Part shown: positions 558-62,392 of the stretch, piece by piece | Layout: each line of letters begins with the position of its first letter | How positions within the stretch are numbered: position 1 is the stretch's first letter | Source: Eledone cirrhosa | Taxonomy: Eukaryota | DNA: 64,000 nucleotides | Direction of reading: 5' to 3' | NCBI GenBank assembly: GCA_964016885.1 | Contig: OZ024741.1 | Span: 52,762,001 to 52,826,000, forward strand | The notes under the pieces: generated by a model | What the model saw: only the letters and a program-made list of their open reading frames with translations | What the model was told of the DNA's origin: nothing | Database searches by the model: none | Translations under genes and position numbers: made by a program

Positions 558-789
558 TCACCTAGCTGTCGTCTGTTCGATAGCGTAGACGTAATTCACT
601 TCGCGCAGAAGTTTTGTTCCAATTTATTGCGGAAATATTGTAAGTTTAATTTTAATTTTGATACTATTGTGTAGCTTGAACCCCGTCTGAACTGTCAGGC
701 GGTGGGTCAACTCATTTTCGCCCCTCCCAGGGGTGAAAAACCTGTTTAAAAAAAATTTTGTTGCATAAAATTTCAATCGTCTGGGAGAA

Positions 790-2684
790 ATGTTAAATGA
801 AGCTAACGAAAATAGTGGTGGGGGGACAGCGGTAAGAGTTGTAAGCTCGCACGCTTTAGTCGCCCCTTCCTTCCCAACTAACGTCATAGAGAAGGAAAGA
901 AAAAATAAAATAAAAACAGACGAATGTGCGGAGAAAAATGTTGACGAAAACACAAATCTGGACATTGATTCCAACAACAACAAAAATTTGGAAGAATTGC
1001 ATGACAATATTAATACCACAAACAAAGAAACAACAAACACAAAAATAACATTTGAAAACAATAACATCATAACAGAAAGCAAAACAGACGACAAAGTCAA
1101 CACCAATAATATCTCATTTGCACAAACAACAAAAAAATCTTTAACATACATACCTGAAAATATTTCAGATGTGGCACAAAGAATAAAAAACGCCAAACAA
1201 TTCATAACTCAAGGGGAAAATGGAGCCTTGTCGGTAAAAATGTCCCAAGAACTCACCAAAGATATTGTAAGTCGGACGGTCGTTTTCCGCACCATCAACA
1301 ACATCTCAAAAAAGCCGCAACAACCAACACAAGTAGAAATTAAAGCGGTACTTAGAGAAGTATTTAATGAAGCCACTTTCATAAGAAGAGACAGGCTGTA
1401 TGCAAGCCTGGCCATTATTATGAAGAACGAATCGGCGGCGAAAAAATATGCTTTGTCGCCGATTCATTCGACACATTTTACCTTTTATCCATCTTATATG
1501 GGTAAAAGAACTCAGCGCATATGGCTGGATGCGATGATGCCAGATATGGACTACTGCTGGCTCATAGCTGGCTTCATTGATCCAGCGAATGACAACGTAA
1601 TTTCCATTGGGAAAACCACAGGCAATGCGTTCAGTGGAACAGGTATAGAACTTGTAGTGCAAATGAAGCCTGAACGCATTGCCCAAATACCCGACAGAAT
1701 CCTATTAGAGGGCCACGGGTATATAAACATTAGCGTGGAGGGGAGAAGGCCGTCCTGTCATATCTGTGCAGGCAGAAGGCACCTGAAGGCGGCTTGTCCA
1801 CAACTCAACAAGAAGAAAACCCTGCTACCAACACCAGCTCCACCACCACCACAACAGATAAACAAACAACAAAACTCAGTCCCACCCAACCCGTCCCTCA
1901 GTAAAACTACACCACCACCACAGAACATTACCCCAAAACAAAACACAGTCCCACCCAACCCCTCACTCAATAAAACAACACAACCACCGCAGCCACAACA
2001 CACAACACAGTCTAACATAGTGACATCCATCTCCCCCACAAAGAAAACTAACACGGAAACACTACCAGCAAACATACCTCTTCCCTCCAACACTGAATAT
2101 AACCCAACGAATTCGGAGGAAGAAACGGAGTCCTTCAGACAGATTAAAAGGAAAAAAAGAAAACATGTGCAAAACACACAAGGCCAAACAGCCCCTACCC
2201 AAATGTCAACACAATCCAACAAAACACAGAACACCCCTCCAGCAACAAACAAAACCAAACCTGCCACTCCCCTCTTCGAAACACTCACACCATCCGAAAA
2301 GAGACATTACACTATACTTACACAAACAGAAACAATAATAAATTAAATGAACTCATAAACAATAACCCTTCGGTACAAACCGAAGGGGTAAACTTTGTTT
2401 TTTCAGAAAACAACCCACAATTAAAATTAATAAAGGTCTCAATGAACCTCTACCAAAAACTAAAAAAGGATTTTAAGGAGGACGTAGGACCGCCCTCTGT
2501 TAAACCCATAAACCGCGTCCTCCTAAAAAGCTTCCCCTCCCCCCTTCCCCTCCCCAACACAACTCCAATCACCCCAACCCCACCAAACACTGACGACCCC
2601 ACACCACCACAAGACACCCCTTCACCCAACACCACCGACCCCATGGAAGTCGTGCGACCCGAACCCCGGGAAGCAGAAAGGTAG
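790..2684 (+). pseudogene. LINE ORF1 (gag-like nucleic-acid-binding protein), frameshifted near 2340
   Basis: ORF 790-2346 has CHICAGRRHLKAAC (CX2CX4HX4C) and a Pro/Thr/Gln-rich tail; reading appears to continue in another frame to the stop at 2684, just before ORF2. Confidence 0.75.
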
Positions 2685-2717
2685 GTCTCTACACTCTCCT
2701 TTGGCTTTGCCGCCCAC

Positions 2718-5700
2718 ATGGATGTGTTAAGAGTAGGATGTTTGAATGCACGTGGCCTGGGCTCAACTTGGAAACAAGCAAAGCTTCTAAATGACCTCAG
2801 GTCACGTGGTATAAATGTAATGGTTATCTGTGAGACTCGGATCAGCGTCGTGCGGCAGCTGGCCCCTACCTTCGATGACTTTGGGGTGCACGCATCTCTC
2901 TGTCAACCTGGAGGTGGGGGTGGGGTGGTCGTACTGCTGGAAAAACACCTGGGTCTCGCCGTACAGGTTGTTCACTCGGACCCGGAAGGTCCTTTGTTGG
3001 TGCTAGACGTTGGCAGTAGTGGAGGTGCGGCTTTGAGACTGGTAGTCGTCTACTCTCCTTTCAGAGCTGAACGACCCGACTTCTTCCAGCATCTGGAGAC
3101 TTTTCTGGGAACGTCGCGTTCCCTGCTTCTAGCGGGGGACTGGAATGACATCCTAGATGCACGTTGGGATTATGCAGGAGCATGTCCTAATAGAGGGGCG
3201 TGTAACAGCTTCAAGGGGTTACTTGACCGTTTTAACTTGGTCGATAGATATCGACTAGATTTTCCAACTGTGCCAACCTGGACTTGGACGAACCACAGTG
3301 GTCAATCTAGATCGTACTTAGATAGATTCTCAGTTAGAAGTAAGGATAGGGACATATTAAGCTGTCCAGAAATGCTCACGGTTGGCTATACAGATCACAA
3401 ATTAGTGACCTGCGTAGTCAACCTCGAGAGAACACATAGACAGGGTCCCGGTTACGGGAAACTTAATTTGTCTTTACCGGCAAAAGAGGCTTACAGAGAC
3501 CGGATTAGCAGATTAGTTAAGGAGAGGTTGACGGGTGCAATCGTCAACAACCGATGGTGGGCATCTCTCAAAAGAGATTAGAACAGAATCAATAAGTTAT
3601 AGCAAGATGTTAGCTGCCGATAGTAATAGGAACGAGAAAGAATTAACAGGTAAATTAGAAGAGGCAATCAAGAGCGAAGATGTGGCCAGAGTGCTGGCAT
3701 CGAGGACGGCCTTGAGCCAGTTTTTCGATGCAAAGCACGATGGCTGCGTCATTTGAAGTAAAAGACGTGCTCTAGGTAATGAGGGGTCAAAGCCGTTGGC
3801 TGGGCCCGCGTGACAGAAGATATGAGTGGAAATCGATCCACCATCCGGTCTTTGCAAGACGAGGATGGACGGGTGATCCGGGAGCCTAAGCAGATGAGCG
3901 AGGCCTTTCAAAGGCACTTTGCCCGATTGTTCGGGGAGGCGAGGGTCCGGGCGGGGACGTGGATTTCGGTCCATACCTCGACGGCCTGCCGCGTCTCTCA
4001 AGCGAAGAGGCAGAGTCCTGCGAGGGACCAATCTCGGCTGATGAGATCGGGGATGCGCTGAGCCAATGCAGCAGACGCAAATCTCCAGGTCTCGATGGTA
4101 TACCTTACGAACTTTATTTAGCAATGCCGGTCTTCTTCTCCGAACTCCTCGAAGCAGTCTACTGCAATTGGCAGCAGAACGGGATAATTCCTTGTTCTGT
4201 AGCCAAGGGCGTAGTCTCGCTGGTGAGGAAGGACGAGAACAAGGGGGATAGTATAAATAATTTTCGGCCCATAACCCTGCTAAACACAGAGTTAAAGATT
4301 TTGGCCAAGGTGTTAGCAAAGAGGTTGGCGCTTGTCGTGGGTGGCCTGGTGGGAGATGCGCAGACATGTGTTATCCCATCCAGGTCCATTCACGACAACC
4401 TCCACCTCATGCGATACATCATAGAGAGGGTTGGCAACAAACCCGGCTTCGGTGGGGCCCTGATCAACTTGGATCAGTCTAAGGCGTTCGATGGGTCGCT
4501 CCTGTTTTCAGAGGCTGGATCACTGCCTTACATAGCAACCACATCTGTTCTAGGATCAAGGTGAACGGCTACCTTTCGAAGTCATTCGAAATCACGCGAT
4601 CCATTCGAAAGGGGTGCCCTCTCTCCTTCCTTCTGTACGTATTGACTTTCGAGCCTTTACTGAGGAAGTTGGAGTTGTTGCAGGGTATCCCCCTGGAACC
4701 AGGATTGAGCAAAGCGGTGTCGGCCTACGCCGATGACGTAACAGTAATGGTATCGACCGACTCGGAGATCGAGGCGATCGGTACCTTACTGGAGGAATAC
4801 GAAAGGTTGTCAGGAGCGAAACTGAACCGGGAAAAATCCATCGGGCTGCAACTTGGAACGTGGAGAGGCAGACCGATGCCTCCCGACGGTGTCGTCGGAC
4901 ACTGGACGGAGGGCCCGGTGAAGTTGCTTGGGGTCTGGTTTGGACCGGACCTCCAGGTGGAAAAGAACTGGGGCGAGGTTACGAACAAGGTGTTTGAACT
5001 GAGACAGAAATGGGCCAAGTGTAAGCTGTCCCTGAAAGGTCGGGCGGAGGTGGCGAACATTTACATAGCGTCCGTCACCTACTACCACCTGACTGTCGTG
5101 CCTTGCCCTAAGGAAACAATCACCACCATGGAACGCATTCTCTTTCAATTTCTTTGGAAGATGCGCCCTCCTATGGTGAGAAGATCCATCTGCTGCCAAC
5201 AACCTTCCAAAGGAGGGCTGGGGATGCCGTAGTTGATGATGCGTAGGCACGCATTAAGGCTACGGCACCTACAGGTATTCCTCACTGGTCAACCTGTGTG
5301 GGCTCCGTTCGTGAGACGAGCCTTTCCGAGACTCGTCTCGCTCACCGAGCTGCAGTCCTGGGTCAAGCAAAGATCCGGAAAACTGGGCGACTGGCACACT
5401 GAGTGTGCCCAGGCGCTCAGGGCTCTCTGGCAAGCGGACCCGGCCATCGGTGGAGAATCCACCTCATCATTCTATAGAGGGCTGGTGGCTAGCAGGGGCG
5501 ATGACACCCTTGGAGAGTCGCTGGACATGGAAGAGGACGAACTGGCCAGCCTGTTCGGTAGGACTTTCGGCCAGGGACCAATGGACAACTTCCAGAAGTC
5601 ACTGGCCTGGCAGTGCTACCGTGGGGCTCTACCCGTTCGAGAGAGGCTCTACAGACACGGGCGCCCGGGCAGGGATCCCTCGAAAAAGATTTGCCCTAGA

Positions 5701-6108
5701 TGCGTGCGTCACGAAGAAACCGTTGCGCACGCATTGGTGCACTGTCCGGGCGTGGCTGATCTGTGGGGCTAGGCCGAACGACTGCTGTTGCGGGTGGCGC
5801 CGATTCGATTGACCGCCGAGTCCGTGGTAACAATCAAGCCGCCTCCCCTCTTCACAAAGGAAGCAAAGGCGGTTTTTCTGTGCGTAATAGCCATGTTGAA
5901 AGAGGTTGTTTGGTGGACACGATTGAAAGATCTGAGGTCAGGCAACTTCCTCTCTGGCCATAGTCTGGTCTACTTCTTCCGATATCACTTCGGAAGAAGG
6001 ATAAGAATGGAGAGAGAGGTGCTTGGCCACAGGCAGTTTTATGAAAGGTGGGTGATAATAGCGAGAATGGCTCGTGTAAATGGGCCTTCTCTGTATACCA
6101 TCCTGTAG
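2718..6108 (+). pseudogene. LINE ORF2 (APE endonuclease, reverse transcriptase, zinc motif), disrupted
   Basis: Motifs CLNARGL, ICET, GDWN, SYLDRF, TDHK (APE); KSPGLDG, NFRPITLLN, LDQSKAFD, KGCPLS, YADD (RT); CPRC..ETVAHALVHC. Split over ORFs 2718-3581, 3959-4564, 4561-5232, 5233-5772, 5788-6108 by stops and frameshifts, with a probable deletion near 4492. Confidence 0.92.
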
Positions 6109-17570: not shown

Positions 17571-17620
<50 letters not shown>

Positions 17621-17887
17621 TGGATGATGTAGAAACAGGTTTATCAAGGGCCGTAGCAAAGATAGAGGCAGAAGGAGGTAGGTCAAACTAGCCACAGCTA
17701 TTGCTAGCAGCAGTCAGAACGACCAAATTTGTTCTCAACATTAGTGGAGGTAGTAGTAATAGGATATACGTTCCTTCACGCACAAGGCGCCAAGGTACGC
17801 ATATATCCACTCTCATCCCAGGAACAGTTTTGATAGCGCTAGTCTGTGATTTAAATTCAGGAATTTTATATTCTTTGAATGAAAAGA

Positions 17888-17971
17888 ACCTTCTGACGAG
17901 AATCTTTCTTTGCAACGAAGGCCGTATGGTCTCCGTTTTATTTTTGGGATTCGAAACCGATCGGTAAAGGT
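17888..17971 (+). ncRNA. Canonical type I hammerhead ribozyme
   Basis: ACCTT-CTGACGA-GAATCTT..GGGATTC-GAAA-CCGATCGG-TA-AAGGT; palindromic stem III. Confidence 0.88.
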
Positions 17972-18368
17972 AACTATAGTAGGTAGTCAATTTTTTAAAA
18001 TCTATTTTGAAACTTTTTCATTATTTGCTAAACCTTGTTTATATTTGTTCTGGCTCGTTAATTTATTAACCCGCCATTGAACCACACTGGCATCTGGTTG
18101 GACAATACATGCGTACCTTGGCGCCTTGTGCGTGAAGGAACGTATATCCTATTACTACTACCTCCACTAATGTTGAGAACAAATTTGGTCGTTCTGACTG
18201 CTGCTAGCAATAGCTGTGGCTAGTTTGACCTACCTCCTTCTGCCTCTATCTTTGCTACGGCCCTTGATAAACCTGTTTCTACATCATCCACTCTCATCCC
18301 AGGAACAGTTTTGATAGCGCTAGTCTGTGATTTAAATTCAGGAATTTTATATTCTTTGAATGAAAAGA

Positions 18369-18452
18369 AACTTCTGACGAGAATCTTTCTTTGCAACGAA
18401 GGCCGTATGGTCTCCGTTTTATTTTTGGGATTCGAAACCGATCGGTAAAGGT
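18369..18452 (+). ncRNA. Canonical type I hammerhead ribozyme, second tandem copy
   Basis: Copy of 17888-17971, 481 bp downstream, with one stem I change. Confidence 0.85.
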
Positions 18453-18630
18453 AACTATAGTAGGTAAAGTCAATTTTTTAAAATTTATTTTGAAACTTTT
18501 TCATTATTTGCTAAACCTTGTTTATATTTGTTCTGGCTCGTTAATTTATTAACCCGCCATTGAACCACACTGGCATTTGGTTGGACAATACATGCGTACC
18601 TTGGCGTCTTGTGCGTGAAGGAACGTATAT

Positions 18631-18683
<53 letters not shown>

Positions 18684-18687
<4 letters not shown>

Positions 18688-19269
18688 AAGGGTATGGATA
18701 TTTCAACAGGCACTAGGTACCTATAGAAATATGCAAGGTGTTTATAATAGTTGTGATTCGATGGTACTAATTTGAGATACCAGAACAATATAAAAAGAGC
18801 TGAGCAAGCAATTATCAAACAATTCTCTAAATAAATTAAAAAAACGATTTAAATAATCACCTGTTCTATTGCTGTTAGCGACGGTCTCACCAATCCAAAC
18901 ATTAGAAATCCAGAGAATTTCCAATGGAAAGAATTAGATCGTCAGACAGCTTATTTCCATACTATAAGGTTGCTAATCTCACAGTAAGTCAACATTTCGC
19001 TTCCTGCCTAACGCATGCGGCCAGGCCGTTGAAATGACACACACGCAAAATCAGGTCGCAAGTAAGAGCTGTTTATTATAAACTTGTTGATACTGCCACT
19101 AAAACCAACAGCACTATACAACGTTTTGTTCTCTACATAAGGAGAACAATTATAAAAGGGTATGGATATTTCAACAGGCACTAGGTACCTATAGAAATAT
19201 ACAAGGTGTTTATAATAGTTGTGGTTCGATGGTACTCATTTGAGATACCAGAACAATATAAAAAGAGCG
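18684..19269 (-). repeat. 468-bp tandem pLTR-like unit (1.25 copies) with a degenerate HHR at 18871-18950
   Basis: 18684-18800 repeats at 19152-19268; minus strand GCTGT-CTGACGA-TCTAATTC..GGATTGGT-GAGA-CCGTCGC-TA-ACAGC. Confidence 0.65.
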
Positions 19270-20145
19270 GACATTGCTGAGTTTTTGAGTATCAGGTATT
19301 TAGAGGTCATGGGTTTAGCATAGTTTGAGTGGAGAATTTGGGCTCTCTCGTCTATAGTGTTAATCCAGAGTTCCGAGTCTAATACAGGTAGTCTATTGTT
19401 AGGGTGTTTGGAAGGGTAGTCGATAGTTACAGTTATACTCTGGTGTATGGAAATAGCTATCTGCTGGATGCTTTCCATTGTGCTACGTTCTAAATCAAAC
19501 TTGTTAGTGCTCTCTTGTGGGGATGTCCTTATTACTATATTGATGTCGTCTACGTAACGAGAGTACATGATGAGATCTATGGAGCTCTCATCAAGGAGAT
19601 TTTTGAGTCTCCTTTCCCACCATACCATAAAAAGGTTGGCAACATCACCAGCTATGCTGACACCAATGGCTGCTCCCTCATTTTGAGTGTAGATCTTCTC
19701 GTTGAACTTGAATATGTGGCCCTTTAGGGTAGTTTTGATACTAACCCCTATTGCATGTGCGACCATTTTTCTTACCTGATCATTGTTTTGGGGGGTCCGT
19801 ATAGGTTTAGTCCACCCAATCCACCTTCCCATGGGAGTCTTTTTTGCCATTGAGGTTATGGTGGGGGTCTACCTCTTATGGGTCTACTGGGGCATAAACG
19901 TCTAAGGTCATGGCTGTCTAAGGTCATGACAGTGTCGTAGGTAAGTCTAAGTAGGAGGCCCAGTTCGTCTGTGTCGACGTCGCAGAACGCCACCTCACTC
20001 TCAATGATCATCTCTCTCCACACATTTTTCCACAGCAAAATCAATGTTAATGGATGGGTACAGTGAAACCATATCCATACTGCCTATTATGCAGTTGGAT
20101 AGGTTCCTGTTTTTGTTGCACTCACTGATTATGCTGAGGAGGTCC
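19270..20145 (-). pseudogene. Penelope-like reverse transcriptase fragment
   Basis: GSMDMVSLYPSI, QNEGAAIG, YSRYVDD, TIDYPSKHPNNRLPVLD, YAKPM; frameshifted. Confidence 0.85.
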
Positions 20146-34383: not shown

Positions 34384-36742
34384 TTAGCTGTATACTTTAT
34401 GGAATGTTCTGTGGAATTTATGCAAGCAGAGAGAAAACAAGTCAGTGCGTCTATTTATTATAGAATCTAAATTAGATTTAATGGTAAATTTCTCACATAA
34501 ACAGAGATTACATGTCTTGGATAGAGAACCATTCAAGTATGGAGAAGCAGAACAAACCTTCCTCCAAGAGATGTTATAGTTAATATTTTTGTCTTTCAAG
34601 GACCATATGAGTTCTGAGAGTGCCGGGTTGGTTCTTTTAAGTTGGTATTTAAAAGACGAATGATGATTATAAAGACGAGCTTTAAAGGAGGTGGAAGTGG
34701 AGCCAAAATATGTAAAGGAATTGGTGTCAGTTATAACTTTATATTCGTAGATTAAGTCTTTTTCAAGATAATTGTTTCTACGTTAGGCACAAGGCCAGCA
34801 ATTACCCAGTGCATTACTGGTACTTTATTTTATCGACCCCGTAAGGATGAAAGGCAAAGTCAACCTCGGCGGGATTTGAACTCAGATCGTAAAGGGACGT
34901 AACTATGCTGGAAAGCATGGCGTCCGACCCTCTACCAATACTGCCAATCCACCGTTGTTGAGAGGACATTTATTTTTAACAGGGCAATTACAATTGCGAT
35001 TAGAGAAATTAACAGAGTTAACAAGTGACCTAGTGTTATCTATAGAAGGAATTGGATTGGAGAAGTTATTCACGATAGGAATAATAGTTTCTTGATTTAG
35101 AATGGGATTAAGAACATTTAACGAAGTTGCGTTTGACGTTGTATTTGGGTTTGCAGAAATTAGCCTAGAGTTAACAATGACGTCGGGAGTACTATTACTA
35201 TTATTATGATATTCAGTGTTGGAAGGAAGAGATTTAGTATTTAGTATTTTATTGTTGTGTTTAGAGATAATGTTAGAGATGTTGGAGGAGGTCGAATATG
35301 AACATTTTATAGTGTATTTGTTAAATATTTTACTATAGATATGTAAGGGAGGGAAGCACTTATTTAAGGCACTAAGGAATAATTTAGGAATATTATTATT
35401 AATAGAGATGGAGAAAGGAGCATTATACCAGATTATGTTTTTGTATCTAGGTCTTTTATTAAAGTTATTGGAATGATCATGATTAATTATTCTACTGTAA
35501 GATCTTCTAGAATTTGTTTCTTTACTATATTTGATTTTATCAGGATAACCGGTTTTAGAAAGCGCGTTATTATAGTAATTGGCGTTAGCATCAAAGATGT
35601 TTTTATTAGAAGATAGGTTGGATATTCTTTTTCCGATATTACTAACTATAGCATTTTTAATATTAGTGGGGTGGTTAGATTTAAAATTAACATAATTTAG
35701 GTTCTCATTGTTTTTATGGTAAGGGTAATATAGGCCAGTGTCAAGATTAAGAGATACATCCAAGAAATTAGCTAGTTTGATGCTGTTATCAAATTCAATT
35801 TTTAAGTTATGTTGGTTAAAGAGATTACGTGTATTGTTCTTAATAATATTAAGGTTAATTATGTTGCAATTTAAGATAGTAAAGAGTCCATCGTCACGAT
35901 AAATTCCACCGCGAAGTTGAGGAATTATCCGATTAAAAGATGTCAAAATAAAGATACCAATTAAATCTGTCAATTGGGATGAATCGGATGCTCCCATTGT
36001 GATGTCAAAGTTGTTAGAGGTATCAGCTCTGGTCCAATATTCATTGTTGAACTCTAGGATGGTTTTACGTGCGGTGAGAATGATGTGAAGTTCATCTGTG
36101 GTGATGTCCGAATATTTGTAAGCGAAAGATAGAGCATTGTTGAGAAGTGAGGGCGAAATAGAAGAATAGTAGCTGGCAATATCAAATTGAATAATTTTTT
36201 GTTTGTTTTTCTTACTCAATTTGTTGAACCAGCCAATCACTTCAGAAGTACCAAACCATAAATTTAGGTTCAAAGAAGAGCAATTAGAACGAACCTGTGG
36301 GATAATTCTATCCAAGATGGCTTTGCTAACAACCCCAGATCTGATTTAGAGGGGGCGATTAGTCTAACAGGTAGTTCAGTACGAAAGTTGTTTTTGTGAT
36401 CCTTGAGATTTATCCTCGGAGTTCTTGGGGGGAATGGTTCGGTCTTTTTCCGATGCCAAGTTTTGACATAATCTCAGAAGCTTCAAAGTTTATGGATTCT
36501 AAATTATCATGGTTGGTTTTGCGATATTTTTTCCTAAGTTCCTTTAGGATAAGGTTGTTATAGTTATCCTTAGAAATACCATATAAATTATTTGTTTTGT
36601 CAGAGTGGATTAAAACACTTTTTGAGGAATTTAGGTTTGAAATCGTGTTCTTGAGATTTACAAGGTGCTCTTGTCCTCTGTAAGGGTTTCTCTTGAATTT
36701 AAGATTTTTTATAGTGTTAGTTAACTCCTCCTCGAATTGCAC
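34384..36742 (-). pseudogene. Penelope-like RT and GIY-YIG ORF, disrupted
   Basis: ORFs 36410-36742, 34903-36315 and 34384-34599 join once frameshifts and the SINE are removed. Confidence 0.88.
34770..34953 (-). mobile_element. tRNA-derived SINE family A inserted in the Penelope ORF
   Basis: Near-identical to 8630-8822; splits CPLNN from YLEKDLIY; short AACAA duplication. Confidence 0.85.
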
Positions 36743-36862
36743 TAGATTTTTGTTGGAAGGAGAATTTCTTCTAGAATTAAATAAATGATCAAGAAAGTTA
36801 TGTTCCTTGGTATAGAAGTTCCCTTTTAGGCGCTTTATTGTACTACAATAAAACTCACCTCC

Positions 36863-36908
<46 letters not shown>

Positions 36909-36942
36909 GGCGCTTTATTGTACTACAATAAAACTCACCTCC

Positions 36943-42603: not shown

Positions 42604-42926
42604 CATATATATATACATATACAAACATATACATATATATATATACAAACACACATACATACATATACATACACATACATACACACACGTACACAAACAT
42701 GTAACATACACACACACACACACATATATATATATACACACAGAGGGGCACAATTCAAGTACGTTATACAAGTGGAAAAAGCAGATAGGTAAGAGCAGGT
42801 GTGTGTATTTATATGTGTATATATGTGTATATATATTTGTATACGTATATATATATATATATGTATGCGTATATATATATGTATATGTGTTTAGATGTAT
42901 ATATATGTGTATATGTATATATATAC

Positions 42927-44980
42927 TTCGTGCGACGCACGAAGCTACAGGCACATTTCGGCCGAACGCCACCGGCTCCGGACGCCCCAGACCCGTTTCT
43001 CGCCCTGGGCCTACGACCATCTTCTTGGACGCCGGCCCCAGGGCAATTTAGCACCCTGGACGCGTTCGTCGATGCCAGCCGTAGCGCCTTAAATCGTTTC
43101 GACTTCCGCCACCGTTCCAAACGTAATAATATCTCACGGGGCGAACTCCTCGCTCTCCGCTCCCTCCGTAGCCGAGATGACATCGTCATCAAACCGGCGG
43201 ACAAGGGAGGCGCCGTGGTGGTGTGGCGCTCGGACCTCTACACGGCCGAAGCCCTCAGGCAGCTCCGTAACCCCCTCTTCTACCGCCCTCTACCCTCCGA
43301 TCCCACACCCCTCTACCAACAACAAGTTTCCTCCACCATCCAACACCTTGTCTCCTCCTCCCTCCTCCCCCCACCTCATCGTCCGCACCCCCGCACCCCC
43401 ACCATCTACTTCCTCCCCAAACTCCACGAACCCGACAACACCGGCCGCCCCATCGTCTCCGCTTGCAACTGCCCCACTGAACTCATCTCCGCCTTTCTCG
43501 ACTCCATCCTCGCCCCCCTTGTCACCACCCTCCCCGCCCACATCTCCGACACCAACAACGCCCTGCGCCTTTTCGACTCCTTCACCTACCCACCCGGCCC
43601 ACAACCCTTCCTCTTCACCCTACACATCAAGTCCCTCTATACCGTCATCCCCCACGCCGACGGCCTACGCGCCCTCAAACACTACCTCGACCTTCGCCCC
43701 TCCCCCATTCCCTCCACCCCCACCCACCTTCGCCTAGCCGAGTTGGTCCTCACCCTCAATTGTTTCTCCTTCTCGGGTGAGTTTTACCAACAGGTCACGG
43801 GGGTAGCCATGGGTACAAGAATGGGCCCGAACTATGTCAACCTTTTTGTTGGCCGTGTTGAGGCCCAAATCTTTGCCCAGTACACCGGCCCCACGCCCGA
43901 ACTGTACGGTCGTTACATCGACGACTGTATCGGAGCCACGACCCTCACCCGAGAACAGCTCGACTCCTTTCTCTCCTTCTTCTGCTCCTTCCACCCCTCC
44001 CTCCACTTCACCACCTCTATCTCCACCACCCACGTCCACTTCTTAGACATCTCCGTCGCCTTCGACCCCTCCCACCACTCCCTCGTCACCTCCGCCTTCT
44101 TCAAACCCACCGACTCCCACTCTTACCTCGACTTCACCTCTTCCCACCCCACACACACTAAACACTCTATTCCCTATTCCCAACTCCTCAGGATACGCCG
44201 CCTCTGTAGCCGAGATGCTGACTTCGAGTCCCAGGCCCTTTCCCTAGTCAGCCATTTCCTCCGCAGAGGTTACCCCCCCTCTCGTCCACACCGCTCTCAC
44301 CCGCGCCCGTGCTGTCCACCGCTCCACCACCCTCTCCCCACGCCACCGCACACCCATCCACCGTCTCCCCTTCCCCATAACCTACCACCCCTCCACCTTA
44401 CCACTCCACCGCACCATCCGCCGCCTCTTCCGACGCCTCCAGTCCGACCCCTCCACCTCCCACATCTTCCCAACCCCACCACTCCCCTCCTTCAAACGCG
44501 CACGAAATCTCTGCACCCTCCTCGTCCACAGCTCCCTACCCCCCAACCCACGCTCTCCCCCCCGGTTACTTTCCCTGTTCTAGGCCTCGCTGCAACACCT
44601 GTCCCCACATCACCAACACCACCACCTTCCAGGGTCCCAACGGCCACTCTCTCTCTGTCCGGCATGCCTTCCGCTGCACCTCCTCCAACCTAGTCTACGG
44701 ACTTCGCTGCACGGAGTGCAGCGCGACTTACGTCGGACAGACGGGACGTCGCCTGGCGGACCGATTCACTGAGCACCTCCGGGATATTCATCTCAGTGGT
44801 AGTTCCCCCATCGCCCGCCACTTTGGTGCCCCTGGACATTCCGCACGCCATCTCACAGTCTGTGGCCTACTCCAATGCCACGGAACACCCGGCAATCTCC
44901 TCAGAGTTGAACAAAGAACCATCTTCATCTTACAGACCCACACTCCCCCCGGCCTGAACTCCCCACCATTATTCCTTTAG
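42927..44980 (+). pseudogene. Neptune-type RT and GIY-YIG ORF with a few frameshifts
   Basis: IKPADKGGAVV, YFLPKLH, GRPIVS, KSLYT, GVAMGTRMGP, RYIDD, FLDI, KPTDSHSYL, SIPYSQ; shifted frame gives CSRPRCNTC..NLVYGLRCTECSATYVGQTGRRLADRFTEH..PGLN, stop at 44980. Confidence 0.92.
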
Positions 44981-46377
44981 CCTTCGACCCCCCCCCCACA
45001 TATCCCCCACTAACACCACTAATACCCCCCTCATTTTCACCGCCCACCCCACAACTAACAATACTAACACCTCCACTCCACCCCTCATCCGACCACCCTT
45101 CCCCAACTAACATACTAACATCCCTCCCTTCTTCTCCTCCTCCTCCTTATCACACGCACACACCCACTGGCACATATATACACGCGCTCACACTAAACAC
45201 ACACCCTACTACCACCACTAACCCTCACTCCCACACATCCATCCCACCATCCCGCAACTAACATCACTAACACCCCCTGACCTCAAGCACACGAACACAC
45301 GCACCCACTTACACCACCCACCCTACACGCAACTAACATCACTAACACCCCACAACCCCATGCACACGTACACACACACCCTCTTACACCACCAACTCTA
45401 CACACCCTATCACCACTAACCCCCACTCACACCCGCATTCAACCCTTTCTCCACCTCCCGTATACTAACACCCACTAACACCCCTTCATCAAACTACACA
45501 CACACCAGTACATCACACTCCCTCCATCGACCGCCACACCCTTCTCTCCCCGCTCCACCCACACCCTTTCTCAAACACTCACTCATCCCACTAACACCTC
45601 TACTAATACCCCCCCCCTCCTCACTCCAACTTTCACACCTACCCATCCTCGCCCCTTTACCATTCCACCCTACTGCTGCTATGCCCTCTGACCACCTCCC
45701 AGCACACACAGACACACAGCACTCCTACTGCCTTGACCACTTCCTGTTGCGCGCGCACCCCACATCTCCCCTCTTTCGACCATCTCTTCACGGATTACTC
45801 GTATGTGGACCTTGACCGCGGAATCAACTACCATCCTAGGATTTTACCAACCTTTCCACAACATCTTCTTACGGAATCACCTTTTTGACTCACCCACACA
45901 CACTCCCAAAACAATTTTTTTTCCCACACGCCACCTATACCACAACACGCTTAAACCCCACATACACGTGCGTTCCACCACATATTTACACATTCAGCCT
46001 CCGGATTCCTCTCCCCCCACCTCACTATCCACACACGCACACACAATCCGACCTACACCCCACCCCACACACACCTCTTCCTGAACATGCAACCCCGTTC
46101 TTCCCCAAACCCTTGCTTTCACATACACACACACACGTACACCTACACACACACACCACCTTCAGCCCTCCCCGCTCGGACAACCCGTCTCCCTCTCCCC
46201 ACTCCACCCGCCACCACCCCTACACGCCCCACACCCGTCCACCACCTGTTTCACCCCATTTTGATCATGCTTTTATTTTTAATTTCATTCGCACCGTTTC
46301 CTCCCACCCCCTTTTCGCTATATGTCTCTCCACCACTCCCCTACACACCCTTTGAACTCTCTTCCCACACACTTTAC

Positions 46378-46535: not shown

Positions 46536-47920
46536 AAGATGAATATAAAATGAAAGTGCTTTTTTTTAAAAAAGGAATTTATTAGGTATTGACATATGTT
46601 TCTGTAACAGACGGAATACCTATGTATCGCTGCTTGCGTAATCATATAATGTTAGCATGTATTCGATAGCAAATGTATAATCAGTTGTCACTTCTTCAGA
46701 GATATTGGATAAATTGGAAAAAAATCATAAAAATTGAAGTATTTATATTAGTTGTAATAAAGGAAGAAGATAAGGGATAGTATATGACAGATGGCAATTC
46801 AATTTACTGGTAAACAAGTATATAAAGGGTTTCTAATGAGAATACAATGAGTATATGTTTATTTTATCTAAATCAGAATTTTTGGGAGTGCCTATTTTAA
46901 TCTATACTTGACCAATTGAACAATGGACAGGGCTGGTCGTTTGGTGTAGTAGTATTAATTATAAAGTGTCAATTAAGGAAGAGGGAGATTTTTCACTGCT
47001 ACTGAATAACAACAATGCTGGTAGCCTGCTGGTATATGCATTGGGAATTGAATTAAGAAATCTCATTTTATCTATAGCAGTTTATATTAAATGGTAAAGA
47101 ATAGAAGAGTTGATAGAATTAAGACTAATAGAGAATGTTAATATGTATTTTGACAATCAAACGGAGATGGAGACAGGCGTTCAATCCTGGTAGTGTTTGT
47201 AATATGAAAATGTAGATTTTAAGCGATGGTTACAGTATAACGATCGCTCTATTCTGTTATTTAATAAAATATTTTTCGATTTCATAATACAAAATAATTA
47301 TATATTACACAATTTACAAAATTCCTGTCCGTGGGAATATGGAGGGGCAGCTGCTATTATATACCATTTTTAGGTTACGCAGCTGCCAAGCCTTGTCTGC
47401 GAGTGTTGTTACATAACGCTGGTTTTCATGTTTTATCGAGTAACGATGTCTATAAAGGCGAGATTTGAAGGATGTGGCTGTAGACCCCAGATAGTACCAC
47501 TTCTGGCTATCCGATTCGATAGCACATTTGTATATGATGTTGCGTTCAAGACACTGATTGTTCAACGGACACATTCCTGGTTGGACACAGTTACAGTTAT
47601 AATTTTGCGTTGTTGTATTGGCATGGATGTGTTGATGAGGTTGCTTAGGTAAGGCGGGATGTTGTTTGTTGTTTCGTGATGTTATAGCTGATGTTTTACG
47701 TGTATTGTTATGTGTTGGAAGGCGTTTATACAACCGTTTTGCGTTAAGCTTTTTTATGTTGTTCAATATTAGGGGCGGTTGAATATGAAAGTCGAATATT
47801 CAAGCACTTTTATTTTATATTCATCTTTTCTACAGTTTCTCCGGAATATAATTTATACTCGTTGAGCAAACCTACACGTACGCTGTTCATCTCTAACGTA
47901 AAGATATATTATCACTACAT
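46530..47920 (-). mobile_element. Penelope-like fragment (GIY-YIG N-part) with pLTR and inverted end
   Basis: ORF 47314-47766: CNC..CPLNNQCLERNIIYKC..YYLGSTATSFKSR; 46531-46561 inverted at about 47802-47832; HHR-like fold with long stem II at about 46586-46705 (CTGAAGA-AGTGACA..TGTTACA-GAAA-CATATG-TC). Confidence 0.75.
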
Positions 47921-47973: not shown

Positions 47974-48056
<83 letters not shown>

Positions 48057-48287
48057 TTAGAAACCCACAGATACATGCGGACACACACATATACATGAAT
48101 GCATCCGCACCCAACCGTGAGTTAAGGGTGCCAACGTCACCGATGTTGCTCAATGAATGACTGGGACAGACCAATCCGGTTGAACTAGACTGAACTAGTA
48201 TCAGAGTTAAAAATACATTATGAAGAGAGAAGAAACATTTAGATATAATTAGTAATAAAATGTATCATACCTAAACTGCTCCTAGAT

Positions 48288-48377
48288 TCCTCGACTACGT
48301 AGTTTCGTGGCATAAACAAAAACAATACATCATAAAGATATAGAGTCCTTGCGAGGTCTGCCGACTTATCAAGAGGA
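48288..48377 (-). ncRNA. Type I hammerhead with U3-A8 core (inverted copy)
   Basis: Reverse complement of 48518-48607. Confidence 0.8.
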
Positions 48378-48517
48378 TACCTCATTTTACTAGTCTCAAG
48401 AACGCGTCTACACGACGTGAGAAAGAATCCCAAAAGGCGTGACTATCTCCCCCTCCGCCTTTTGGGATTCTTTCTCGCGTCGTGTAGATGCGTTCTTAAG
48501 ACTAGTAAAATGAGGTA

Positions 48518-48607
48518 TCCTCTTGATAAGTCGGCAGACCTCGCAAGGACTCTATATCTTTATGATGTATTGTTTTTGTTTATGCCACGAAACTACGTAG
48601 TCGAGGA
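48518..48607 (+). ncRNA. Type I hammerhead with U3-A8 core
   Basis: TCCTC-TTGATAA-GTcGGCA..TGCCAC-GAAA-CTACGTAG-TC-GAGGA; predicted cleavage after C48602. Confidence 0.82.
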
Positions 48608-49110
48608 ATCTAGGAGCAGTTTAGGTATGATACATTTTATTACTAATTATATCTAAATGTTTCTTCTCTCTTCATAATGTATTTTTAACTCTGATACTGG
48701 TTCAGTCTAGTTCAACCGGATTGGTCTGTCCCAGTCATTCATTGAGCAACATCGGTGAAGTTGGCACCCTTAACTCACGGTTGGGTGCGGATGCATTCAT
48801 GTATATGTGTGTGTCCGCATGTATCTGTGTGTTTCTAAATATATTGTTAATAACTCCCTCTGGTCGAGCAACCTTTGAAGTGTGGGGACTGCTGAAAAGC
48901 TTCCATTACTCATACTTCTTGTCTCCTTCACCACCTCTTCTACGGCTTCGATATAAATACCCCCTCCGCCTCCGTGGTATTTTCTTCGGGGTTATAAGAG
49001 GCTTAGCTCTGTTTCTCGACCGTTATATCGCGTGACTATCTCCCCCTCCGCCTTTTGGGATTCTTTCTCACGTCGTGTAGACGCGTTCTTGAGACTAGTA
49101 AAATGAGGTA

Positions 49111-49200
49111 TCCTCTTGATAAGTCGGCAGACCTCGCAAGGACTCTATATCTTTATGATGTATTGTTTTTGTTTATGCCACGAAACTACGTAGTCGAGGA
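49111..49200 (+). ncRNA. Type I hammerhead with U3-A8 core (second tandem copy)
   Basis: Same motif 593 bp downstream. Confidence 0.82.
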
Positions 49201-49331
49201 ATCTAGGAGCAGTTTAGGTATGATACATTTTATTACTAATTATATCTAAATTTTTCTTCTCTCTTCATAATGTATATATATATATATGTATATGTGTTTA
49301 GAAGTATATATATGTGTATATGTATATATAT

Positions 49332-59537: not shown

Positions 59538-59969
59538 ATATATATATTGTATGTCTACGCCATTTTTTATTCAGTCTGTCTATATATTTAGACTAAATAT
59601 ATAGAGAGACTGAATAAAAAATGGCGTAGACATACAACACAACAGGAGGAAAAAATATAACACCACTGACGATGTTGCAGATGTGCAACGAAAGATTTAT
59701 GTAAATTATGTAAACTATATATATGTGTTTGTGTCTATATTGTATCTGTATTATTTTTGACCGTCGGTCAGTCAATGGTAACATTGAGGACCGAGTAAGT
59801 TAGATCGCAGATATAAAAGACAGCGAGAAGCGAAAACCAACCAAACAGTGAGTGTGTTCTGTTATTAATTCTGGCAATATTACACAAATATGACCCTCCC
59901 CAAGTATAACAATATTTGTTTCGGCACACAATTTCATATAAAAAACCTCTCTAAACTAATTCATCGCCG

Positions 59970-60035
<66 letters not shown>

Positions 60036-60406: not shown

Positions 60407-60803
60407 TCTGAATTTGTTTAGCAAGATTCTTTATCTGAAATCGTGTGTTGAAATATGTATATGAACATATATATATATTCATATACATGGTTAAGAGAGT
60501 GGGACTGGCTTTGTGCAGTGCCTTTGCTCACTATAAAAGTTTCATATATATATATATATATATATATATTTAGAAACACACAGATACATGCGGACACACA
60601 CATATATACATGAATGCATCCGCACCCAACTGCGAGTTAAGGGTGCCAACTTCACCGATGTTGCTCAATGAATGACTGGGACAGACCAATTCAGTTTGAA
60701 CCAGACTGAACCAGTATCAGAGTTAAAAATACATTATGAAGAGAGAAGAAACATTTAGATATAATTAGTAATAAAATGTATCATACCTAAACTGTTCCTA
60801 AAT

Positions 60804-60891
60804 TCCTCGACTACGTAGTTTCGTGGCATAAACAAAAACAATACATCAAAGATATAGAGTCCTTGCGAGGTCTGCCGACTTATCAAGAGGA
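60804..60891 (-). ncRNA. Type I hammerhead with U3-A8 core
   Basis: Same fold as 48518-48607 with a 2-nt shorter loop II. Confidence 0.82.
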
Positions 60892-61394
60892 TACCTCATT
60901 TTACTAGTCTCGAGAACGCGTCTACACGACGTGAGAAAGAATCCCAAAAGGCGGAGGGGGAGACAGTCACGCGATATAACGGTCGAGAAACAGAGCTAAG
61001 CCTCTTATAACCACGAAGAAAATACCACAGAGGCGGAGGGGGTATTCATATCGAGGCCGTAGAAGAGGTAGTGAAGAAGGCGAGAAGTATGAGTAATGGA
61101 AGCTTTCCAGTTGTCCCCACACTTCAAAGATTGCTCGACCAGAGGGAGTTATTAATATATTTAGAAACACACAGATACATGCGGACACACACATATATAC
61201 ATGAATGCATCCGCACCCAACTGCGAGTTAAGGGTGCCAACTTCACCGATGTTGCTCAATGAATGACTGGGACAGACCAATTCAGTTTGAACCAGACTGA
61301 ACCAGTATCAGAGTTAAAAATACATTATGAAGAGAGAAGAAACATTTAGATATAATTAGTAATAAAATGTATCATACCTAAACTGTTCCTAAAT

Positions 61395-61482
61395 TCCTCG
61401 ACTACGTAGTTTCGTGGCATAAACAAAAACAATACATCAAAGATATAGAGTCCTTGCGAGGTCTGCCGACTTATCAAGAGGA
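61395..61482 (-). ncRNA. Type I hammerhead with U3-A8 core (second tandem copy)
   Basis: Same motif 591 bp from the first. Confidence 0.82.
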
Positions 61483-62392
61483 TACCTCATTTTACTAGTC
61501 TCGAGAACGCGTCTACACGACGTGAGAAAGAATCCCAAAAGGCGGAGGGGGAGACAGTCACGCGATATAACGGTCGAGAAACAGAGCTAAGCCTCTTATA
61601 ACCACGAAGAAAATACCACAGAGGCGGAGGGGGTATTCATATCGAGGCCGTAGAAGAGGTAGTGAAGAAGGCGAGAAGTATGAGTAATGGAAGCTTTCCA
61701 GTTGTCCCCACACTTCAAAGATTGCTCGACCAGAGGGAGTTATTAATATATTTAGAAACACACAGATACATGCGGACACACACATATATACATGAATGCA
61801 TCCGCACCCAACTGGTCTTTATGTGTACATATATTAACATTGTCTTTCATCTTTCTGTGCATTCATAACAATATTAAAAAGTTTAACTTTCTTTTCGCTC
61901 GTTCACCTTTTTTTTCTCGAAAGAAGTCGTTTGCGACAAAAACTTTAATTGTCCAAATCACACCCCATGACACAACAGTGCGCCTGTGTTCTACCAAGAA
62001 TTGAGGACCCATAGAAGATAGTAGTTAATATGTTTGATGCAGGATGCCTGAATGGTTTAGAATCTTGCTTCATGATTATGAAGTCCCGGGATCGATCCTA
62101 CTCTATGTCATCGCAGGAGTGTCATTTACCATTGAAATTGCTTAGATAGAAACTGTTTGGAAACCTGTCGGATGGACTGCATCGGTAATTCGAAGGCTAC
62201 CTATTTTGATTACATGTACAACTCATTTCTTTCTCAGCTATGTGTACTGGTGCAACGTGAAATAAATTGTCTTGCTCAAGGACGTAACTTCCCGGAGGAA
62301 ATCAAAATAACGATAACAAGAATGAAACAGGTCTAGTCAGTTTTATACAAGTCATTTCGATATGAAACAAATTTCTACCTTCTCTAGTAATG

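What the first reader, a model, noticed from the sequence alone, without database searches (positions are those of the whole stretch)
60565..61814. Large (591-nt) retrozyme candidate with a U3-A8 variant hammerhead
Seen: a non-coding 591-bp unit repeated head-to-tail 2.1 times, each unit with one type I HHR fold (5-bp stem I TCCTC/GAGGA, stem II GTcGGCA/TGCCAC, palindromic stem III CTACGTAG, GUC site). The core reads UUGAUAA rather than CUGAUGA. Established: C3 and G8 form a tertiary pair in the active HHR, so a double change to U3-A8 is compensatory; metazoan non-LTR retrozymes are tandem HHR repeats that give monomeric linear and circular RNAs, and the known ones are usually shorter than this. 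Inference: this is a young, unusually long retrozyme family that a CUGANGA pattern search would miss, possibly cleaving as a dimer through its palindromic stem III.
Basis: partly seen in the sequence, partly recalled or inferred. Interest (0 to 1): 0.88.

Follow-up and report, generated by a model that had tools for sequence, protein, structure and literature searches.

The report
Penelope-carried hammerhead retrozyme, two start sites
This is one of thousands of recent copies of a small non-coding jumping element of a known kind, carrying a predicted self-cutting RNA motif; its back-to-back insertions almost always pair two different fixed ends, which suggests that a borrowed Penelope-type enzyme copies one RNA, likely a circle, into both strands of TA repeats.

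Summary
Observation confirmed: 60564-61814 is 2.12 identical 591-bp units, each with a type I hammerhead (U3-A8 core) on the minus strand. It is one copy of a family with 5,731 exact hammerhead matches in the genome and older subfamilies down to 67% identity, with compensatory changes in stems I, II and III. Neither selling point is new: U3-A8 hammerheads are published for Schistosoma Penelope-like elements (PLEs), and animal retrozyme units of 51-972 bp are reported. The informative part is the insertion footprint. Copies sit in (TA)n and end at two fixed sites, 80 and 245 nt after the predicted cut, each just 3' of a conserved hairpin. Inverted insertions pair one end of each kind (22 of 23 in a position-ordered sample), as two intact PLE families of this genome also do. 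Arms read through the cut site and units within an insertion are near-identical, which favours a circular template. No coding PLE sharing this sequence was found; the partner is unidentified. Cleavage and RNA are untested. The scan already reported this family, with the same reading, from other windows of this genome.

The parts
60564..61814 (-). The insertion: 2.12 head-to-tail 591-bp units, single arm, 5'-truncated at 61814, 3' end at start site B (60564)
60809..61399 (-). Predicted monomer between the two cut sites (591 nt); folds as a circle at -172 kcal/mol, z -6.0 to -6.8, with the hammerhead stem I not formed
60804..60898 (-). Type I hammerhead, downstream copy: U3-A8 core 60886-60880, long stem II with apical hairpin, palindromic stem III, predicted cut between 60809 and 60808
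61395..61489 (-). Type I hammerhead, upstream copy; predicted cut between 61400 and 61399
60865..60898 (-). Candidate pseudoknot: 6 nt just 5' of stem I (60898-60893) complementary to the internal loop of stem II (60871-60866); conserved to 67% identity but almost invariant, so not proven by covariation
60737..60808 (-). Hairpin A (nt 1-72 after the cut); takes up the 3' strand of stem I; contains a 5'-splice-site-like motif at 60788-60781 (motif recalled, splicing untested)
60729..60729 (-). Start site A (80 nt after the cut; also 61320): fixed 3' end of 44 of 84 arms elsewhere, not used as an end in this copy
60574..60638 (-). Hairpin B (about nt 171-235 after the cut)
60564..60564 (-). Start site B (245 nt after the cut, 165 nt beyond A): fixed 3' end of 36 of 84 arms, and the end of this copy
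60544..60563 (.). (TA)n target joined to the 3' end of the insertion
60950..61052 (-). Two conserved GC-box-like motifs (60950-60960, 61032-61042) and a TATA-like motif (61043-61052) upstream of the hammerhead; promoter role inferred from recalled consensus only
48049..49275 (.). Second, older copy (95-96%) in the window: head-to-head arms 48049-48439 (-, ends at B) and 48437-49275 (+, ends at A), both ends in (TA)n

Best explanation
The array is one insertion of an abundant non-coding retroelement (a non-LTR retrozyme) that is likely reverse transcribed in trans by a Penelope-like protein from a predicted 591-nt RNA circle into (TA)n repeats. Shown: the tandem unit, the conserved hammerhead fold, thousands of dispersed copies, (TA)n targets, two fixed 3' ends 165 nt apart, one of each in inverted insertions, read-through of the cut site, and near-identity of the units in one insertion. 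Inferred: read-through transcripts self-cleave after GUC (as monomer or through the palindromic dimer helix) and are ligated to a circle in which the 3' strand of stem I re-pairs into hairpin A and the ribozyme is off; a PLE protein, probably a dimer, nicks both strands of a TA repeat; one strand primes at site A and the other at site B, each in an AU-rich stretch 8-10 nt 3' of a long hairpin; both cDNAs run round the circle for a variable number of laps and are joined head to head by microhomology, or only one survives and gives a single arm as in this window.
For: Copy number. 80 of 84 arm ends at A or B and 74 of 84 followed by TA-rich DNA. A+B pairing in 22 of 23 inverted insertions of the position-ordered sample, 13 of 13 best-hit loci (one locus shared with the first sample), 14 of 21, 14 of 20 and 11 of 12 in three older subfamilies; no A+A, two B+B, the rest with one off-site end. 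The same rule in a 1217-aa PLE of this genome (13 of 13 inverted pairs with both ends in view) and in examples of a 758-aa Hydra-type PLE. Two internal starts downstream of the hammerhead are shown in vitro for the anole PLE (PMC11167929). 40 of 42 A arms and 31 of 34 B arms cross the cut site, 0 of 76 5' ends lie at it. Units differ by 1.0 site within and 7.2 between insertions; in L064 six units on both arms share 4 variants seen at no other sampled locus. In 10 of 22 pairs neither arm is contained in the other, and 16 of 22 junctions overlap by 1-5 nt. Strand-specific fold kept in subfamilies. Hammerhead covariation.
Against: No RNA or cleavage data. The hammerhead is not the predicted minimum-energy fold. 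In the anole PLE the hammerhead was not needed for insertion and uncut RNA was the main substrate; only 1 of 9 Xenopus retrozyme dimers cleaved in vitro. L086 has one variant in the last lap of both arms and not in four other laps, which fits a multimeric template better; in L090 the two arms come from different subfamilies. 'Private' variants are private only among about 70 sampled loci of a few thousand. No autonomous element with shared sequence was found among three PLE families examined. Covariation counts rest on few independent events, and the hairpin structure was derived from the same alignment (3 pairs with two-sided changes, reached by 488 of 500 shuffles).
Confidence: 0.62

Rival explanations
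1. Same PLE passenger and same two start sites, but the template is an uncut linear read-through transcript of a tandem donor; the hammerhead cuts slowly or serves another step, and no circle is needed.
For: Uncut RNA is the dominant substrate of the anole PLE in vitro; one in-register variant in both arms of L086; the hammerhead fold is predicted to be weak; read-through of the cut site is expected here too.
Against: Subfamily and locus-specific variants are shared by all units of an insertion, up to six units on two arms, which needs a single-unit bottleneck; the hammerhead is conserved with compensatory changes over 33% divergence; the monomer folds strongly as a circle.
Confidence: 0.27
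2. The units are pLTR fragments shed by a coding PLE that shares this sequence, not an independent non-coding element.
For: The footprint is that of PLE ends; most PLE copies are 5'-truncated; the genome search scores only the best candidates, so a rare master could be missed.
Against: The units join head to tail with no ORF between them in all five subfamilies; PLE fragments in flanks belong to several unrelated families and are separate insertions; four pattern searches for relatives of the hammerhead gave only retrozyme copies or other families.
Confidence: 0.06
3. Single insertions were expanded afterwards by DNA-level tandem duplication, and inverted copies arose by fold-back of one cDNA or self-priming on an antisense template (as proposed in PMC3846280).
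For: A few junctions are near-symmetric (L061, L067, L084); units in the window are identical; passage on self-priming.
Against: In 10 of 22 pairs neither arm can be a copy of the other; ends are fixed and paired A+B; the antisense strand has no unusual fold (z -1.4); arrays contain no duplicated flank.
Confidence: 0.05

Closest known systems
Metazoan non-LTR retrozymes (Cervera and de la Pena 2020, PMC7229834; part 2 of 6, discussion and passages read; Li, Clavereau and Pollet 2026, bioRxiv 10.64898/2026.07.22.740005; parts 1-3 of 5 read, supplements not seen)
   Same: Non-coding tandem units under 50% GC with one type I hammerhead each, dispersed in thousands of copies, strongly self-paired predicted circle, PLEs in the same genome; size inside the reported 51-972 bp.
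   Different: U3-A8 core and a 57-63-nt stem II with a candidate pseudoknot; the hammerhead is predicted to be blocked in the circle, whereas most animal retrozyme circles are predicted to leave it free; fixed paired ends in (TA)n are not described in the parts read; no sequence match to a resident PLE pLTR was found, unlike 24 of 57 Xenopus families that matched known elements.
EN+ Penelope-like elements with inverted pLTR and one-sided tail (Craig et al. 2021, PMC8557442, passages and section 11; Arkhipova et al. 2013, PMC3846280, passages; Frangieh et al. 2024, PMC11167929, parts 1-3 of 4)
   Same: 5'-truncated tandem and head-to-head copies, (TA)n targets, two internal start sites downstream of a hammerhead (first site 80 nt after the cut here, 85-92 nt in the anole element), tail on one end only.
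   Different: No ORF; tail 165 nt against 30-40 nt in those papers (43-58, about 70-80 and about 85-90 nt in three coding PLEs of this genome); strict one-of-each pairing, whereas no strand difference was seen in vitro; 3' ends show AT microhomology with the target.
U3-A8 hammerhead of Schistosoma mansoni Cercyon PLEs (Cervera and de la Pena 2014, PMC4209133; parts 1-2 of 4 read)
   Same: Same compensated core change; palindromic helix III; missed by a canonical descriptor.
   Different: There a minimal, heterogeneous, mostly single motif; here a full helix III, long structured helix II and a homogeneous tandem family.

Membership tests
Non-LTR retrozyme | Tandem units each with a type I hammerhead | tested here: met
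Non-LTR retrozyme | Non-coding, no LTR/PBS/PPT layout, GC below 50% | tested here: met
   GC 0.42, longest open stretch 86 codons; head-to-tail units without internal region
Non-LTR retrozyme | Dispersed multi-copy family with retrotransposition footprint | tested here: met
Non-LTR retrozyme | Strongly self-paired monomer circle (prediction) | tested here: met
   z -6.0 to -6.8 sense, -1.4 antisense; -3.7 and -5.2 in older subfamilies
Non-LTR retrozyme | Self-cleavage to a monomer | not testable with these tools
   needs in vitro assay; predicted fold is marginal without the pseudoknot
Non-LTR retrozyme | Linear and circular monomer RNA in cells | tested here: inconclusive
   no RNA holder listed; contigs laid cannot tell circle from tandem DNA
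Autonomous EN+ Penelope-like element | RT plus GIY-YIG ORF between pLTRs | tested here: not met
PLE-type insertion | Tandem/inverted 5'-truncated copies, tail on one end, microsatellite target | tested here: met
   same pattern in coding PLEs of the genome
PLE-derived retrozyme (Li et al. 2026) | Sequence homology to the pLTR of a resident PLE | tested here: inconclusive
   none with three coding families; other PLE families of the genome were not examined
Type I hammerhead ribozyme | Three helices around the conserved core, 3-8 pair, G10.1-C11.1, A15.1-U16.1, NUH site | tested here: met
   98% of cells paired, 6 pairs with two-sided changes in 31 distinct sequences; core is U3-A8; no Rfam match

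The most novel reading that the evidence does not exclude
The retrozyme RNA is a dedicated two-handed docking platform: a ribozyme-made 591-nt circle presents two hairpin-plus-AU-tail modules, 165 nt apart, that load the two subunits of a Penelope-like RT dimer so that each strand of a nicked TA repeat primes at its own site and both copy the same circle by rolling. It would be direct genomic evidence for circle-templated retrotransposition of an animal retrozyme and would explain the Penelope 'tail' as obligatory one-site-per-strand priming whose spacing is set by RNA structure, not by a fixed 30-40 nt.
Probability: 0.4. Interest if true: 0.72.

Novelty: new member of a known kind. Interest (0 to 1): 0.47.

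Why it matters
How animal retrozymes are copied into genomes, and why Penelope-like insertions carry a tail on one end, are open questions: PLE mobilisation and circular templates are proposed in the papers read, not shown. This family gives exact, conserved start sites, the RNA hairpins next to them, a defined target and intact candidate enzymes in the same genome, so the proposal can be tested with an existing in vitro assay. It also shows that canonical-core searches miss whole high-copy families.

Tried and rejected
Rfam scans found no hammerhead. TRF missed the array because its longest period is 500. Canonical-core version with the same stem III: 0 matches. Apparent links of old copies to Hydra-type ORFs (L194, L198) are separate insertions; L202 joins a Hydra-type 3' UTR to a truncated copy and may be a chimera or an insertion, one case only. 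Pfam did not recognise the two full PLE ORFs and PDB gave nothing; the Hydra label rests on motifs compared with section 11 of PMC8557442, and the clade of the 1217-aa element was not tested. No RNA holder listed. A 621-nt contig in run X2 is the monomer plus 30 nt, but the same run holds the coding PLE at similar depth, so it is no sign of an RNA circle. A cluster of 5' ends (9 of 76 in an 18-nt window) was noticed after the fact, overlaps TA microhomologies and was not taken as a transcription start. Target-site duplications cannot be read in (TA)n. Paper searches; none returned this family or paired fixed ends in a retrozyme, but subscription journals, Repbase/Dfam and the preprint's supplements were not seen. 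PMC7151607 (one passage) did not bear on U3-A8 activity.

Full report
Observation. The unit is 42% GC and has no open stretch above 86 codons. Its 3' end abuts a (TA)n run and its 5' end is truncated. A second, 95-96% identical copy with head-to-head arms lies at 48049-49275. Rfam does not recognise the motif, and thermodynamic folding alone does not favour it.

Family. The genome (G000, 3.0 Gb) holds 5,731 exact matches to a 22-mer of the hammerhead, control 0. I fetched all 55 loci behind the first 100 matches, which lie in the first 64 Mb of contig C1, plus five long arrays. Arm identity to the window unit has a median of 97%. Older subfamilies were found at 81-83% and 76%, and two more distant ones, one with a 593-nt unit at 67%. 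All keep U3-A8; no canonical-core version with the same stem III was found. In an alignment of 32 motifs chosen to span the subfamilies, 98% of cells pair and six pairs change on both sides, in stems I, II and III and in the apical hairpin of stem II. These are few independent events, but they fall where a hammerhead predicts. The centre of the stem III palindrome changes to a different palindrome, including positions that cannot pair within one strand, which fits a dimer helix (one event). Six bases 5' of stem I are complementary to the internal loop of stem II in all subfamilies, a candidate pseudoknot; they are nearly invariant, so this is not proven.

What is not new. A U3-A8 core is reported from Cercyon PLEs of S. 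mansoni with about 1,300 hits (PMC4209133). This genome has further U3-A8 families (116 pattern hits against 3 controls), among them a separate 319-bp tandem family. Animal retrozyme consensus lengths of 51-972 bp are reported, with a mean of 650 bp in ray-finned fishes (bioRxiv 10.64898/2026.07.22.740005). That a U3-A8 hammerhead keeps activity is recalled, not from a call; the text read states partial rescue for C3G/G8C.

Insertion footprint. Of 84 arms in the position-ordered sample, 44 end 80 nt after the cut (site A), 36 end about 245 nt after it (site B) and 4 elsewhere; 74 are followed by TA-rich DNA; 5' ends are scattered. Inverted insertions join two arms head to head and pair A with B in 22 of 23 cases; the figures are 13 of 13 for best-hit loci and 14 of 21, 14 of 20 and 11 of 12 for older subfamilies, with two B+B, no A+A and the rest having one off-site end. 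The 165-nt spacing is kept down to 67% identity. In 10 of 22 pairs neither arm is contained in the other, so one is not a fold-back copy of the other, and 16 of 22 junctions overlap by 1-5 nt. At site A about a quarter of ends replace a template G near the end by the target's A, which fits annealing of the nicked TA strand to the RNA. This is the PLE footprint of an inverted pLTR and a one-sided tail (PMC8557442; PMC3846280), explained in vitro by two internal start sites downstream of the hammerhead (PMC11167929). Two young coding PLEs of this genome behave alike in (TA)n: a 1217-aa element (ends 43-58 nt apart; 13 of 13 inverted pairs with both ends in view) and a 758-aa element with the motifs of the Hydra clade (ends about 70-80 nt apart). 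Neither, nor a third Hydra-type family, shares DNA sequence with the unit. The partner is therefore unknown.

RNA anatomy. The cut-to-cut monomer folds as a circle at -172 kcal/mol against -134 to -137 for shuffles (z -6.8 and -6.0), while the antisense strand does not (z -1.4); older subfamilies give z -3.7 and -5.2. Sites A and B each lie in an AU-rich stretch 8-10 nt 3' of a long hairpin in the three subfamilies folded. Across 45 copies these hairpins keep 98% pairing with many one-sided changes, though only three pairs change on both sides and the structure came from the same alignment. In the circle the 3' strand of stem I pairs within hairpin A, which would switch the ribozyme off.

Template. 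A cleaved linear monomer is excluded as the usual template: 40 of 42 A arms and 31 of 34 B arms cross the cut, 19 and 10 cross it twice, none of 76 5' ends lies at it, and 125 of 132 cut junctions are unchanged. Units differ by 1.0 site within and 7.2 sites between insertions; in L064 six units on both arms share four variants not seen elsewhere in the sample, and 8 of 39 arm pairs share such a variant. This favours repeated copying of one monomer, that is a circle. Against it stand L086, with one variant in the last lap of both arms only, and L090, whose arms come from two subfamilies, and the in vitro finding that uncut RNA suffices for the anole PLE. No RNA run was available, and the contigs laid cannot decide.

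Verdict. A new, large and partly young member of the animal non-LTR retrozymes that works like a non-autonomous PLE passenger. I put about 0.9 on PLE-type mobilisation with two internal starts, and 0.62 on the full model with a circular template. The eight paper searches did not return this family or the paired-end rule in a retrozyme, but the one-sided tail of PLEs is known. The scan's own notes describe the same family and reading from other windows of this genome; I had recorded my reading before seeing them, and they are not independent evidence.

Noticed in passing
window 17616-18634: Another non-coding hammerhead element: canonical core, 53-nt stem II, 10-nt palindromic stem III, two copies 484 bp apart plus an inverted arm, between (TA)n runs; relatives in L093 and L122.
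   Followed up: no
L158, L154-L183: A separate 319-bp U3-A8 tandem family with short stem II, (TA)n targets and two ends about 28-38 nt apart, mostly paired one of each; at least four further U3-A8 motif types appear in the same search.
   Followed up: partly
window 59600-59970 and 19236-19868; L265:1233-4883: End piece and RT fragment of a very young PLE with an intact 1217-aa frame, an asparagine-rich insert and strict paired ends; not recognised by Pfam as a whole.
   Followed up: partly
L237:2148-4421; window 34384-36922 and 47314-47799: Several Hydra-type PLE families; one with many intact 758-aa frames and a canonical hammerhead, another with 713-aa frames and no hammerhead spotted in the 3' region read.
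   Followed up: partly
window 60781-60788 and the following 50 nt (minus strand): Motifs resembling a 5' splice site, branch point and pyrimidine tract start 22 nt after the cut; older subfamilies have an AG just past site A that the young one lacks. A retained small intron is possible.
   Followed up: no
L202:1050-1760: A truncated old copy is joined in the same orientation to the interrupted 3' UTR of a Hydra-type PLE; template switch or insertion with deletion, one case.
   Followed up: partly
L090:2398-4272: Inverted insertion with A and B ends whose two arms come from different subfamilies (99% and 96%), suggesting that two RNA molecules can serve one insertion.
   Followed up: partly
window 769-5772 and 42789-45120: A broken endonuclease/RT non-LTR retrotransposon and a broken C-rich PLE-like RT plus GIY-YIG element.
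   Followed up: no
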